This document shows positions 9,001 through 12,000 of a stretch of 42,756 nucleotides of DNA, piece after piece. The DNA lies in IMG/VR virus record IMGVR_UViG_2778261067_000008, positions 1 to 42,756 of that record; one strand, given 5' to 3'. The number at the start of each line of letters is the position of its first letter. Position 1 is the stretch's first letter. Position numbers: made by a program. This DNA is from a virus (Duplodnaviria; Heunggongvirae; Uroviricota; Caudoviricetes).

Positions 9001-12000
9001 AAAGACCATAAACCGGTGTTCGTTTTCGCTGGTAATTCCCCATTCGCGGTAAATCTGATTATCAGAAATTACCAGCAGTTTATCAGGTATCATTTGCAGT
9101 CGTTTGACGTAAATTTTATCATCAAAACCAAATACATATATACCATCCCCATCAAACTGATTGATACTGATATCAACGAAGATGAGATCTCCTGGCTCAA
9201 TGGTTGGACACATACTGTCCCCACGAACGTTGATAACTTTAATGTGATTTGCTGGTCGTCCACCAAACATCGATACAGCATTATCAGTTCTGTATTCAAT
9301 GGCATGAATCACATCAATGACATCACCGCCCTGGATAAGGCCATTTCCCGCACTGGCACTGACATCCAGCATTTCAATACGGAATACATCCTTCACCTGC
9401 GCAACATCCTCACTAATACTGTTTTTACATACAGTATTACTTTTGAGGTCTGAGGTAAAGAGATCAGCAATATCAACACCTAAGCTCCTGGCAATATTAC
9501 TCAGGGCTTGTTCAGTGAATTGTTTCTGCTTACCTGTTTCGAGGCGCGAGATATTTGCCGCATCCACTCCTATTGCTTCAGCGAGATCGGCGATTTTCAT
9601 GTTCTTCGCCTGGCGAAGTTGTCTGACTCGATTTCCTATGTTCATGCGTTTATTACATTTCTTTATTGCGCGTTAAGCAAATCAACTTGCGCAAAATATT
9701 TGCGTGAAATAATATGCTCATCACGCAATATGTGGAGGTTATATGCAATCACCATTACGGAATGTGCGTAAGGCGCACGGATTTACTTTGCAGCATGTTG
9801 CTGCGGGCGTTCAGGTCAATCCAGCGACGCTGAGTCGTATTGAAAGACTGGAACAAATTCCATCTATCGATCTTGCAGAACGTCTGGCCAATTTTTTTAA
9901 GGGTGAAATCAGCGAAATGCAGATTCTTTATCCGGCACGTTTTCAATCTAGCCAAAACCAGAATGGGTTTAAACCACAGGAACAGGAGGTAAGCCGTGGG
10001 TAAGCATCATTGGAAAGTGGAAAAACAACCTGAGTGGTACGTGAAAGCTGTCAGAAAAACTATCGCGGCATTGCCTGGGGGTTACGCTGAAGCTGCTGAC
10101 TGGCTGGATGTAACAGAGAACGCTTTATTCAACCGCCTTCGTGCAGATGGCGATCAGATTTTCCCGCTGGGATGGGCAATGGTTTTACAGCGCGCGGCTG
10201 GCACTCACTACATTGCGGATGCTGTCGCACAGTCTGCTGGTGGGGTGTTCGTATCGCTTCCTGAAATTGAGGAAGTAGAGAACGCCGATATAAACCAGCG
10301 CCTGCTGGAAGTCATCGAACAGATCGGGAATTACTCAAAGCAGATTCGTTCGGCAATCGAAGATGGGGTCGTGGAGCCACACGAGCAGACAGCAATTAAT
10401 GATGAGTTGTATCTGTCAATTTCGAAGCTCCAGGAGCATGCAGCACTGGTCTACAAAATCTTCTGCGCTCCAGAAAAGAGTGACGCCCGCGAGTGTGCAG
10501 CTCCGGGCGTCGTGGCGTTTTGTGTCTGTGGAGAAACTAACGCATGAACAGTTTAACGGCAAATAACCGTTTGTCGCAACAGCTGGTGGTCAGCGTCTCT
10601 GAACACCTGTTGTTACGGCATGAATGCAGATTACCAAATCACCTGGCTGTAAGTAACCACAGAGAACTTTACCTGACTGTGGGGGGCGAGTTGTGCAGGA
10701 ACTTAACCGCTGGTTTCGTGACGGAAGAGGGCTTTATGTTCATGTTATTCGTTGGGAACCAGAAACACAGCGCGTTATCTATCTTCGCAAAGACTACCCG
10801 CATGAGTGCTTTAGTCCTTTGTGGAAATTCAGGCGTGATTTTGTTGAGTGTGAAGGACCACCAGCACATTGATTCTGCCATTCCGGGACGTTACACTGTT
10901 CAGGCACCTTATAAAGCGGGTGCCGGGATTGGCGTCCTGAAATTGATTACTGAGCATAACCGCGCTCATGCGGTTTTTTCGTGTCATGAGCATTGCTACG
11001 CCCAAATTATGGTGGGGCGTACAGGGCCGACTTCGGTCGGGCCGGGTTCGGTAGTCTCCGGTAACGCCAACCCTGTACGTCTCACCACCTCTGTGATTGG
11101 CGTCCCATGTGGTGAGTTTTCTAAAAAACTGACTACCGGGGCTGTCACCATGACTACTCTCCCAACCCTCTCTCAACCTGAAATTGCCATCGTTGATGGT
11201 CAGGCTGTTACTTCTTCTTTGGCTGTTGCTGACTTCTTCTCTAAACGTCATGACGATGTTCTGAAAAAGATCCGCATTTTGGATTGTTCTCCAGAGTTTT
11301 GTGCCCGCAATTTTGCGGAGACATCAATTTTGGTACGCCAGCCCAACGGCGGTACTCGCAAACTTCCTTGCTATCAAATAACCCGCGACGGCTTTGCGTT
11401 TCTTGCTATGGGGTTCACGGGGAAACGTGCTGCCCAGTTCAAAGAGGCATACATCAATGCCTTTAACCAGATGGAGAAACAGCTTTCAAAGCCCTCTGTA
11501 CCGAGCGACGTTGCACATAACGCCAGCGTTCTCTATTCCTACATTTCATCAATTCATCAGGTCTGGTTGCAGCAGCTTTATCCCATGCTGGAAAAAGCTG
11601 AATCACCGCTGGCTGTAAGTCTGTATGACCGAATTAACGATGCGGCATTTCTTGCCCGTCTTATTCATTCGTCGCTGAACTCTTCAGAGGTAAGGGGGCG
11701 CAAATGATCCGGAATATTTTCAAACGATTTACCAATCAGACTTTCCGTTGTCCTCGCCCGGGTCAGTGGTACACCACGCCTGCAGGGCATGTTCTACGTG
11801 TTAGCCTGGTGGACCGTGAATGTCAGAAGGTGATTTGTGAACCGCTGGGCCGTAATTACCGCGTCAGTATGCCGCTTATAGCCTTTTGCTCCGGAAAAAA
11901 CATGAAGCATCTCGGAGGTGCAGCATGAGTATGGAGCTGATGGTTAAAGCGATGAAAATTCGAGTGGGTAATCCATTGCGAAAACTGGTTCTGATCAAGC

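What the first reader, a model, noticed from the sequence alone, without database searches (positions are those of the whole stretch)
10548..11149. 600 bp between the CII-like and Rha genes: non-protein-like long ORF and a possible hidden small gene
The ORF in the track (10544-11707) extends the Rha gene by about 200 codons of Cys/His-rich sequence that does not look like protein. In another frame a short ORF (about 10693-10872, GTG start after a G-run) translates to a plausible 59-aa protein (VQELNRWFRDGRGLYVHVIRWEPETQRVIYLRKDYPHECFSPLWKFRRDFVECEGPPAH). The region could hold a small gene, an RNA or regulatory sites.
Basis: seen in the sequence. Interest (0 to 1): 0.45.

Follow-up and report, generated by a model that had tools for sequence, protein, structure and literature searches.

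The report
RNA immunity switch guarding prophage Rha
The 600 bases between the CII-like and Rha genes of this E. coli prophage hold a real 59-residue gene plus a known two-RNA switch (IsrK and the C4 antisense RNA, with promoter, terminator and target sites) that controls Rha translation, so this is a new example of a known phage system.

Summary

- **Small gene:** 10693-10872 is a genuine DUF4222 gene (pN/pS 0.14 in its own frame).
- **RNA module:** its stop codon lies in the -35 box of a conserved promoter. This drives an IsrK/SeqA-type sRNA (10904-10980, with terminator), followed by a C4/CI-type antisense RNA (11005-11092). Both score above Rfam gathering thresholds and show stem covariation.
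- **Targets:** the C4 loop and junction are complementary to two sites at the Rha ribosome-binding site (ATG 11150) and to two decoy sites inside IsrK. All three elements co-vary across 20 lineages.
- **Known relatives:** this is the P1 immI / P4 immunity / Gifsy-1 isrK-orf45-anrP design.
- **The 202-codon "extension":** it shows no protein-level selection (pN/pS about 0.8-1.6). Even so, its frame is kept open, and in relatives the long ORF starts on the stop codon of whichever gene lies upstream. This matches the nested eta/kil genes of P4, so it may be translated only to carry ribosomes through the RNA switch.
- **Side finding:** the Pfam "Ash" domain appears to be this translated RNA region.

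Verdict: a new member of a known kind, of moderate interest.

The parts
10544..11707 (+). Long 'eta-like' ORF of 387 codons. Its ATG overlaps the cII-like stop (ATGA, 10544-10547). It runs in frame through the small gene (in another frame), the promoter, isrK, C4 and the targets into Rha.
   Evidence: ORF; ATGA in 47 of 48 distinct relatives; frame kept open; no protein-level selection before 11150; P4 eta/kil parallel.
10681..10690 (+). G-rich Shine-Dalgarno-like run (GGGGGGCGAG) ahead of the GTG start of the small gene.
   Evidence: the G-run and GTG are kept in all 48 distinct relatives.
10693..10872 (+). Real small gene: 59-aa DUF4222 protein. Its TGA stop lies inside the -35 box of the isrK promoter.
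   Evidence: Pfam PF13973 51.1 bits (cut-off 27) and phrog_1343 at 1e-36 over full length. Variable columns by codon position 9/6/24. pN/pS 0.14 against 1.57 and 2.78 in the other frames. tblastn finds it in 115 phage records, including phages that lack the Rha module.
10869..10897 (+). Promoter of isrK (counterpart of P4 PLE and the Gifsy-1 PisrK): -35 TTGATT 10869-10874, 17-nt spacer, -10 TACACT 10892-10897.
   Evidence: Conserved in 20 lineages including Gifsy-1 and P4. Nearly invariant among 48 close relatives. Gifsy-1 promoter activity is shown in PMC4825925. The simple consensus scan did not flag it.
10904..10980 (+). IsrK / SeqA-type sRNA carrying the decoy sites a1 and b1 and ending in an intrinsic terminator.
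   Evidence: Rfam RF01394 59.3 bits (gathering 50), E 2.5e-10. Stems 91 % paired with 7 pairs changed on both sides in 20 sequences.
10929..10935 (+). a1 site (TTGGCGT) in the loop of IsrK hairpin 2, complementary to C4 a'.
   Evidence: The P1 record annotates a1 in the same relative position.
10945..10952 (+). b1 site (GATTACTG), complementary to C4 b' with two G.U pairs.
10958..10980 (+). Intrinsic terminator of IsrK (AACCGCG/TGCGGTT stem plus U-run), lying in the middle of the long ORF.
   Evidence: Conserved in 20 lineages.
11005..11092 (+). C4 / CI-type antisense RNA. By alignment with P1 c4 the mature RNA is about 11011-11089.
   Evidence: Rfam RF01695 82.3 bits (gathering 45), E 8.6e-15. 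99 % of cells paired and 13 pairs changed on both sides in 24 sequences, against 4 or fewer in slid controls. P1 c4 boundaries.
11009..11011 (+). Invariant AUG in the 5' strand of the C4 stem. It is the counterpart of the first AUG of Gifsy-1 orf45 and here lies in frame with Rha, 47 codons upstream.
   Evidence: (ATGG invariant in 24 sequences), and PMC4825925.
11049..11056 (+). b' (CGGUAGUC) in the loop of C4 hairpin 3.
11064..11070 (+). a' (ACGCCAA) in the C4 multiloop junction.
11097..11103 (+). a2 target (TTGGCGT) on the rha leader.
   Evidence: Same order and spacing as the P1 a2 site.
11109..11116 (+). Conserved GTGGTGAG, complementary to the 3' arm of the C4 stem (CUCACCAC). A candidate alternative pairing partner.
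   Evidence: Seen in nearly all lineages and located. Its role is inferred only.
11131..11141 (+). b2 target (GACTACCG, 11131-11138) overlapping the Rha Shine-Dalgarno (GGGG, 11138-11141).
   Evidence: b2 is hypervariable, with 11 sequence versions of the b2-SD segment among 48 close relatives, and matches its own C4 loop.
11150..11707 (+). Rha protein proper (185 aa), in the position of P4 kil, P1 icd and Gifsy-1 anrP.
   Evidence: Phage_pRha 96 bits from residue 21. 3-periodicity and pN/pS 0.26 begin here. SD and ATG are conserved in all lineages. Distant Rha homologues align only from here.

Best explanation
**What is there.** The interval holds a small DUF4222 gene followed by an RNA-based secondary immunity module of the P1 immI / P4 / Gifsy-1 isrK type. 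The module controls translation of the Rha regulator.

**Proposed working.**
1. A conserved promoter (10869-10897), probably independent of CI, starts transcription at about 10904.
2. Most transcripts stop at the IsrK terminator and give a ~77-nt sRNA that carries sites a1 and b1.
3. Read-through transcripts carry the C4-like RNA. By analogy with P1 and P4 it is cut out and accumulates.
4. Its exposed loop b' and junction a' pair with a2 (11097-11103) and b2 (11131-11138) on the rha leader. b2 overlaps the Shine-Dalgarno sequence, so Rha (ATG 11150) is not translated. Transcription of the downstream replication genes is probably reduced by polarity.
5. IsrK carries slightly weaker copies of the same sites and competes for C4, so the IsrK:C4 balance sets Rha expression.
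6. On transcripts from the early promoter upstream, ribosomes finishing the cII-like gene can restart at ATG 10544 (ATGA overlap). They would translate the 'eta-like' frame through the terminator, C4 and the targets, making these transcripts insensitive to the RNA immunity, as in P4.

**Shown here by computation:** family membership of both RNAs, stem covariation, three-way co-variation of antisense and targets, promoter conservation, coding status of the small gene and of Rha, and depletion of stops in the long frame.

**Inferred from homologues:** RNA processing, repression in trans, the decoy role of IsrK, polarity, and translation of the long frame.
For: - **RNA families:** Rfam hits above gathering score for isrK and C4, and the same pair at the same distance from the gene start in 19 other loci.
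- **C4 structure:** 99 % of cells paired, 13 pairs with compensatory change, slid controls 4 or fewer. isrK: 91 % paired, 7 such pairs.
- **Antisense and targets:** a'/b' co-vary with a2/b2 and a1/b1 over 19 lineages with many specificities. With P1 added, each C4 prefers its own downstream target in 20 of 20 lineages (-24.3 against -14.3 kcal/mol), and its own IsrK in 16 of 20.
- **Position of b2:** it abuts or overlaps the conserved SD of the gene ATG.
- **P1 reference:** the P1 record annotates a1, b1, c4, a2, b2 and icd in the same order with similar spacing.
- **Promoter:** conserved in 20 lineages including the experimentally characterised Gifsy-1 promoter and P4.
- **Gifsy-1 experiments:** IsrK in trans activates translation of the downstream gene, and orf45 starts at the same AUG (PMC4825925).
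- **Small gene:**
- **Long frame:**
  - Stops by frame over C4 plus the leader are 4/29/33.
  - There are 0 stops in phase over 320-935 nt upstream, against 4-22 in the other frames.
  - The long ORF has an NTGA-coupled start in 9 distinct junction contexts.
  - P4 has the identical layout, with orf88 stop/ATG overlap, then PLE, seqA, CI and the 65-aa kil.
  - This P4 arrangement is described as eta/kil in PMC10111431.
Against: - Nothing has been measured for this prophage: no RNA, processing, translation or phenotype data.
- The c4-a1b1 Rfam model scores below threshold in the window (21.6 against 46.7 bits), although the isrK model passes.
- The simple sigma-70 scan did not flag the promoter.
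- The long frame is not universal. It is interrupted in L013, L019, L022, L070 and in P1.
- In the window the open frame over the DUF4222 part is not unusual given that gene's codons (permutation P = 0.68).
- The function of Rha in this phage is unknown.
Confidence: 0.85

Rival explanations
1. The RNA module is as described, but the long ORF is a pure annotation artefact. It would be open only because the conserved, G+C-rich RNA genes and an overlapping gene happen to lack stops in that frame, and it is never translated upstream of 11150.
For: pN/pS is 0.8-1.6 in that frame and there is no 3-periodicity. An intrinsic terminator and a promoter lie inside it. A real gene in another frame overlaps it. 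The frame is broken in L013, L019, L022, L070 and P1. Synonymous-codon permutations give only P = 0.68 for the window, and 0.055-0.21 for relatives.
Against: Stops are strongly depleted in that frame alone: 4/29/33 over C4 plus leader, and 0 against 4-22 upstream. The first start codon overlaps the stop of nine different upstream genes. Antisense genes lying in register avoid TTA/CTA/TCA while their partner genes do not. Indels between C4 and the ATG are multiples of three. P4 eta and Gifsy-1 orf45 are reported as translated (PMC4825925).
Confidence: 0.35
2. The 387-aa ORF is a genuine two-domain Ash-Rha protein, as databases annotate it, and the RNA matches are incidental.
For: Pfam PF10554 matches residues 117-198 (39 bits, cut-off 26) and phrog_821 covers the whole length. 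The 120 best database matches, of 2677 in all, carry PF09669 plus PF10554, and most are 387 aa long. Published work treats Ash as a protein domain (PMC8951638).
Against: The Ash match coincides with isrK plus C4 plus targets. There is no purifying selection on the product. Compensatory changes follow RNA helices. The founding P4 member is the old 'cI' CDS that overlies the C4/CI RNA, while the real epsilon protein belongs to PF25738. No sequence relative of the Ash segment has a solved structure. AF2 shows no secondary structure in the Ash part, but that run was inconclusive.
Confidence: 0.03
3. The isrK and C4 sequences are decayed relics of an older module and no longer regulate anything.
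For: No expression data exist for this prophage. The window's isrK score (59.3 bits) is among the lower ones seen.
Against: The promoter, terminator, all stems and both target pairs are intact. Complementarity to its own targets ranks first of 20. The same allele is found at 99 % identity or more in about 100 complete E. coli genomes.
Confidence: 0.05

Closest known systems
Satellite phage P4 immunity region (PLE promoter, seqA, CI RNA, seqC, nested genes kil and eta)
   Same: The order of elements is the same. An upstream gene's stop overlaps the ATG of a long frame, which contains a constitutive promoter, an isrK/seqA-type hairpin RNA with terminator, and a C4/CI RNA, followed by '...EAAI' and a short gene beginning MATTL.... 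The Rha N-terminus (MTTLPTLSQPEI) even resembles Kil (MATTLTPSHPEF). The logic as summarised in PMC10111431 is that RNA immunity blocks the short gene, while translation of the long one from an upstream promoter prevents termination.
   Different: Here the cargo is a 185-aa Rha-domain regulator inside the early right operon of a lambdoid prophage, not the 65-aa Kil followed by epsilon and alpha. The long frame overlaps a separate same-strand gene (DUF4222). P4 acts through Rho-dependent termination at timm (my recollection of Forti 1999; the paper is not held). Whether that applies here is untested.
P1/P7 immI (c4 antisense RNA - icd - ant1/ant2)
   Same: a1, b1, C4, a2 and b2 lie in the same order with nearly the same spacing, and b2 ends about 10 nt before the start codon of the first gene. 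The RNA family is the same (RF01695). Specificity resides in a'/b', as between P1 and P7 (established knowledge: Citron and Schuster 1990).
   Different: In P1 the frame through c4 carries stops. The first gene is icd, coupled to ant. The promoter has a C1 operator, whereas no CI-operator-like repeat is seen here. In P1 the a1/b1 region is not annotated as a separate terminated sRNA.
Salmonella Gifsy-1 isrK-orf45-anrP (Hershko-Shalev et al. 2016, PMC4825925)
   Same: An IsrK sRNA with its own promoter and leaky terminator is followed by a C4-like RNA (STnc1160) and then an antirepressor-like gene. orf45 begins at the same invariant AUG in the C4 stem.
   Different: In Gifsy-1 orf45 ends with a TGA that overlaps the anrP ATG (coupling), whereas here the same frame is fused in phase to Rha. 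AnrP is an ORF6N protein, not Rha. The module lies next to the late regulator Q rather than between cII and the replication genes. Its b specificity also differs.
Stx2 phage F004 (LC710661) and other Stx or lambdoid phages with 'Rha/Ash' genes
   Same: The GenBank record already annotates isrK and C4 ncRNAs directly upstream of a Rha-domain gene. The architecture is the same.
   Different: The region is about 69 % identical and carries different a and b specificities. Most other records annotate only a long 'Rha', 'antirepressor' or 'peptidase' CDS over the RNAs and over the small gene.

Membership tests
C4 antisense RNA (Rfam RF01695; P1/P7 c4, P4 CI) | Covariance-model score at or above the curated gathering score | tested here: met
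   82.3 bits against 45, E 8.6e-15, full model 1-87.
C4 antisense RNA (Rfam RF01695; P1/P7 c4, P4 CI) | Long closing stem enclosing two hairpins, supported by compensatory changes | tested here: met
   24 sequences, 99 % of cells paired, 13 pairs changed on both sides, slid controls 4 or fewer.
C4 antisense RNA (Rfam RF01695; P1/P7 c4, P4 CI) | Exposed segments a' and b' complementary to a2/b2 at the ribosome-binding site of the next gene, and to a1/b1 upstream | tested here: met
   a' 11064-11070 pairs with a2 11097-11103 and a1 10929-10935. b' 11049-11056 pairs with b2 11131-11138 and b1 10945-10952. The window's own downstream target and own IsrK both rank first of 20; across lineages the cognate downstream target ranks first in 20 of 20 and the cognate IsrK in 16 of 20.
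C4 antisense RNA (Rfam RF01695; P1/P7 c4, P4 CI) | Excised from a longer precursor (RNase P at the 5' end) and acting in trans as a repressor | not testable with these tools
   Known for P1 and P4 from the literature (own knowledge). No RNA data exist for this prophage.
isrK sRNA (RF01394) / c4-a1b1 (RF03163) / P4 seqA | Covariance-model score at or above the gathering score | tested here: met
   isrK scores 59.3 bits against 50. The overlapping c4-a1b1 model is below threshold in the window (21.6 against 46.7), although it passes in Gifsy-1 and four relatives.
isrK sRNA (RF01394) / c4-a1b1 (RF03163) / P4 seqA | Own promoter and a leaky intrinsic terminator upstream of C4 | tested here: met
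   -35/-10 boxes conserved in 20 lineages and terminator at 10958-10980. Leakiness was not tested.
isrK sRNA (RF01394) / c4-a1b1 (RF03163) / P4 seqA | Hfq binding and activation of downstream translation in trans | not testable with these tools
   Activation of downstream translation in trans was shown for Gifsy-1 IsrK (PMC4825925).
P4-type nested eta/kil arrangement | Long ORF in phase with the short gene, enclosing the promoter and both RNAs, with its start overlapping the stop of the upstream gene | tested here: met
   Window ATGA at 10544-10547, kept in 47 of 48 relatives. P4 layout. Nine independent junction contexts.
P4-type nested eta/kil arrangement | Translation of the long ORF is needed to prevent termination of transcripts from the upstream promoter | not testable with these tools
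   Reported for P4 (PMC10111431 citing Forti 1999). Here there is only indirect support from stop depletion and codon avoidance.
DUF4222 (PF13973) small phage protein | Profile match above the curated cut-off, and evolution as a coding sequence | tested here: met
   51.1 bits against 27 and phrog_1343 at 1e-36. pN/pS 0.14 with third-position excess 9/6/24.
Phage_ASH 'Ash protein' domain (PF10554) | Profile match above the cut-off | tested here: met
   39 bits against 26, residues 117-198 of the extension.
Phage_ASH 'Ash protein' domain (PF10554) | Behaves as a protein domain (purifying selection on the amino-acid sequence, a fold) | tested here: not met
   pN/pS 0.82 and no codon periodicity. 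The match coincides with the RNA genes. The P4 prototype is the obsolete 'cI' CDS over the CI RNA. The AF2 run was inconclusive. It is therefore not filed as a protein domain.
Rha regulatory protein (Phage_pRha, PF09669) | Domain match, with a start codon consistent with the family | tested here: met
   96 bits from residue 21 of the 185-aa form. Homologues from Firmicutes, Vibrio and Acinetobacter phages align only after ATG 11150.

The most novel reading that the evidence does not exclude
The 387-codon frame may be a selected 'ribosome conduit' rather than a protein gene. On this reading, ribosomes leaving the upstream gene must be able to travel without meeting a stop, across the small overlapping gene, the internal promoter, the IsrK terminator and the C4 RNA, into Rha. 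Early-promoter transcripts would thereby escape the RNA immunity. In relatives this selection would be strong enough to shape the codon choice of antisense toxin-antitoxin genes inserted under the frame. The Pfam 'Ash' domain and several PHROGs would then be by-products of translating RNA genes.
Probability: 0.45. Interest if true: 0.55.

Novelty: new member of a known kind. Interest (0 to 1): 0.35.

Why it matters
**Annotation.** In this very common E. coli prophage type, part of the region matches in 3074 of 5426 complete genomes. There the real small gene and two regulatory RNAs are usually hidden under one long CDS labelled 'Rha family regulator', 'antirepressor' or even 'peptidase'. The 'Ash domain' is discussed in the literature as a protein domain of unknown function.

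**Biology.** The module is a second, RNA-based immunity layer that keeps a Rha-type regulator silent in lysogens. Its b site varies between otherwise near-identical prophages, which suggests many immunity specificities among co-resident prophages, including Stx phages.

**If the conduit reading holds.** It would be a clear, testable case of an ORF selected for being open rather than for its product.

Tried and rejected
- **tRNA/tmRNA scan:** nothing found.
- **Minus-strand ORFs:** 10669-10881 has pN/pS 1.38, although phrog_14536 exists for it. 10829-11251 has pN/pS 0.85 and stops in 24 of 48 relatives. 10996-11151 has no family match. None is a gene.
- **CI operator near the isrK promoter:** no shared repeat with the cI-cro intergenic operators.
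- **Structure of the 'Ash' part:** no PDB sequence relative. AF2 without an alignment gave mean pLDDT 38, which is inconclusive. The protein search returned only hits of 96 % identity or more among those listed, so no useful alignment could be built.
- **Synonymous-codon permutation as a test of frame openness:** weak (0.055-0.21), and uninformative for in-register genes and for the window's DUF4222 overlap (0.68).
- **10548-10692:** no ORF of 30 aa or more other than the long frame, no Rfam match at E of 1 or below, and ambiguous substitution pattern. No separate element is claimed.
- **The 63-aa ORF upstream of the long frame in L004:** not a DUF4222 relative.
- **Forti et al. 1999:** could not be read. 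Its content is taken from PMC10111431 and from memory.
- **MFE folds of the read-through transcript:** they keep the C4 fold but do not resolve alternative structures.
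Full report
**Observation.** The window carries the ORFs exactly as described: 10544-11707 (387 aa) and, in another frame, 10693-10872 (59 aa, GTG). Rha's internal ATG is at 11150, so the extension is 202 codons. It is only mildly rich in Cys and His (3.0 % and 5.4 %). The surroundings are a lambdoid immunity region: a LexA-like repressor (8953-9645, minus strand), a cro-like gene, a CII/YmfL-like gene (9996-10547), then Rha, a 74-aa ORF and a replication gene. The region is 99 % identical to many E. coli chromosomes and 98.4 % identical to phage 1720a-02. Part of it matches in 3074 of 5426 complete E. coli genomes.

**The small ORF is a gene.**
- It matches Pfam DUF4222 (51 bits, cut-off 27) and phrog_1343 over its full length.
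- In an alignment of 48 distinct relatives (80-99 % identical), variable columns fall 9/6/24 on its codon positions 1/2/3. pN/pS is 0.14 in its frame against 1.57 and 2.78 in the other two frames.
- The G-run and GTG start are conserved.
- tblastn finds it in 115 phage records, including phages where it sits directly before the replication gene with no Rha module. In many records it lies unannotated under a long 'Rha' CDS.
- The antisense ORF 10669-10881 is a shadow ORF (pN/pS 1.38), although a PHROG exists for it.

**Two RNA genes follow.** Rfam at gathering thresholds finds isrK at 10904-10980 (59.3 bits) and the C4 antisense RNA at 11005-11092 (82.3 bits). IsrK ends in an intrinsic terminator. 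The same pair lies at the same distance from the gene start in relatives from Citrobacter, Edwardsiella, Serratia, Pantoea, Erwinia and Aeromonas, and in Gifsy-1, phage P88, Stx2 phage F004 and P4. F004's GenBank record already annotates both RNAs. Structure is supported by covariation:
- C4: 99 % of cells paired and 13 pairs changed on both sides, against 4 or fewer in slid controls.
- isrK: 91 % paired and 7 such pairs.

A promoter is conserved in all 20 lineages, including the Gifsy-1 isrK promoter and the P4 position: -35 TTGATT at 10869-10874, a 17-nt spacer, and -10 TACACT at 10892-10897. The DUF4222 stop codon lies inside the -35 box.

**Targets.** The C4 hairpin-3 loop (b', 11049-11056) and the junction (a', 11064-11070) are complementary to b2 (11131-11138) and a2 (11097-11103) on the rha leader. 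b2 overlaps the Shine-Dalgarno GGGG. The same C4 segments are also complementary to b1 (10945-10952) and a1 (10929-10935) inside IsrK. Across 19 lineages, a' and b' change together with both target pairs. With P1 added, duplex energies rank the cognate downstream target first of 20 in all 20 lineages (-24.3 against -14.3 kcal/mol). The cognate IsrK ranks first in 16 of 20. The P1 record annotates a1, b1, c4, a2, b2 and icd in the same order and with similar spacing. Among near-identical E. coli relatives the b2 segment is hypervariable.

**Rha start.**
- A conserved SD and ATG are present in every lineage.
- Codon periodicity and pN/pS 0.26 begin at 11150.
- The Phage_pRha domain starts at residue 21.
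- Rha homologues from Paenibacillus, Bacillus, Enterococcus, Acinetobacter and Vibrio phages align only downstream of this ATG.

**How it most likely works.** By homology with experimentally studied systems, the module is a secondary, RNA-based immunity circuit. In Gifsy-1 the isrK promoter drives IsrK plus a read-through isrK-orf45-anrP mRNA that is translationally silent. IsrK supplied in trans activates it, and a stable processed RNA (STnc1160) corresponds to the C4 position (PMC4825925). In P1 and P4 the C4/CI RNA blocks the ribosome-binding site of the first downstream gene, with polar consequences (own knowledge; summarised for P4 in PMC10111431). Here C4 would occlude the Rha SD and IsrK would act as a competing decoy. 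No CI-operator-like sequence lies near the promoter. All of this is inferred for this prophage; nothing has been measured.

**The long ORF.** The extension does not evolve as protein, and it contains a promoter and a terminator. Its Pfam match, Phage_ASH at residues 117-198, coincides with isrK, C4 and the targets. In P4 the same Pfam family matches the obsolete 'cI gene product' CDS that overlies the CI/C4 RNA, while the true epsilon protein belongs to another family. Even so, the frame looks maintained:
- From the invariant AUG in the C4 stem (11009, the Gifsy-1 orf45 start) it runs in phase into the gene ATG in 14 of 19 lineages. In Gifsy-1 it ends in an ATGA overlap.
- Stops over C4 plus leader fall 4/29/33 by frame.
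- Indels there are multiples of three.
- Upstream of the promoter the in-phase frame has no stops over 320-935 nt, while the other frames have 4-22. This holds even across real antisense BrnT/BrnA, TumE/HVO_A0114 and SWIM genes.
- The antisense genes lying in register avoid TTA, CTA and TCA, while their partner genes use them freely.
- The first start codon of the long frame overlaps the stop of the upstream gene (NTGA) in nine different junction contexts, including the window's cII stop.
- P4 shows the identical design. The orf88 stop overlaps the ATG of a frame that crosses PLE, seqA and CI and then reads '...EAAI MATTLTPSHPEF...', the 65-aa Kil.

PMC10111431 describes this P4 arrangement as eta/kil. 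Eta is translated only from an upstream promoter, is coupled to the alpA homologue, and its translation prevents termination. I therefore regard the long ORF as a probable eta-like read-through frame (about 0.45-0.5), not a two-domain protein.

There are counter-points. The frame is broken in four relatives and in P1. Permutation tests are only suggestive. AF2 without an alignment was inconclusive.

**Comparison and novelty.** Both RNAs pass their family thresholds and meet the structural and target-site criteria. The architecture matches P4 most closely, then Gifsy-1 and P1. The differences are:
- the cargo, a 185-aa Rha protein;
- the location between cII and the replication genes of a lambdoid prophage;
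- the in-phase fusion of the orf45-like frame to Rha;
- the overlap of the long frame with a separate small gene.

This makes it a new member of a known kind. Its practical value is for annotation: a hidden gene, two hidden RNAs, and a probably spurious 'Ash' domain. It also raises a testable hypothesis about ORFs that are kept open only so that ribosomes can pass through.

Noticed in passing
window 10892-11137; L160 (P4) 8168-8584 minus strand: Pfam PF10554 'Phage_ASH' and the N-terminal parts of phrog_821/995/3960/6928 match the conceptual translation of isrK plus C4 plus targets. In P4 the family hits the obsolete 'cI protein' CDS that overlies the CI RNA, while the real epsilon protein is PF25738. 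Papers still use Ash as a protein domain or as a marker for epsilon (PMC8951638, PMC8628076).
   Followed up: partly
L005 1672-2188, L008 1498-2185, L011 1513-2146, L112 1829-2230 (all minus strand): Antisense toxin-antitoxin or SWIM genes lie under the long Rha-phase frame in relatives. The gene in register with that frame has no TTA, CTA or TCA codons, while the partner gene uses them freely (for example TCA for 6 of 9 Ser in L008). This suggests selection to keep the plus-strand frame open.
   Followed up: partly
window 10945-10952 against 11131-11138, and the same sites in 19 lineages: The decoy site b1 inside IsrK usually equals b2 except for one change (most often C to T) that turns a Watson-Crick pair with C4 into a G.U wobble. 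IsrK therefore looks like a systematically weaker competitor than the mRNA target.
   Followed up: no
window 11125-11141 and relatives: Among 48 otherwise 80-99 % identical E. coli-type modules, the segment holding b2 and the Shine-Dalgarno sequence occurs in 11 sequence versions. This suggests many RNA-immunity specificities within one prophage family.
   Followed up: partly
L130 1395-1580 and 2258-2446; L014 1299-1493 and 2258-2446; L070 2004-2082; L101: Some relatives carry two isrK-C4-Bro/Rha modules in tandem. The second long frame starts on the stop codon of the first Rha gene.
   Followed up: no
window 10474-10512, minus strand (inside the 3' end of the cII-like gene): A G+C-rich hairpin (GACGCCCGG...CGGGCGUC) followed by CUCUUUUCU lies on the antisense strand. 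It is reminiscent of the lambda oop terminator opposite the end of cII. No convincing promoter was found in 10548-10625.
   Followed up: partly
window 11704-11928: A 74-aa ORF (phrog_1153, 2.6e-45) starts with an ATGA overlap on the Rha stop. It is weakly similar to the DUF4222 protein (BLASTP E 0.048; the small ORF also hits phrog_1153 at 0.008). The two may be distant paralogues flanking Rha.
   Followed up: partly
L012 2367-2453 (Providencia alcalifaciens): At the place where C4 sits upstream of the Rha homologue, Rfam reports sRNA-Xcc1 (RF02221, 72.3 bits) instead of C4. The two families may be related.
   Followed up: no
window 10669-10881, minus strand: phrog_14536 (8.9e-48, full length) corresponds to the shadow ORF antisense to the DUF4222 gene. 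pN/pS of 1.38 indicates that it is not a gene.
   Followed up: yes
window 10544-11707: All 120 listed database matches, most of them 387 aa long, carry PF09669 plus PF10554. Many are named 'peptidase' by NCBI sources, a name that nothing in the sequence supports. RefSeq also/322-aa versions and a 'DUF4222 pseudogene' fragment.
   Followed up: partly
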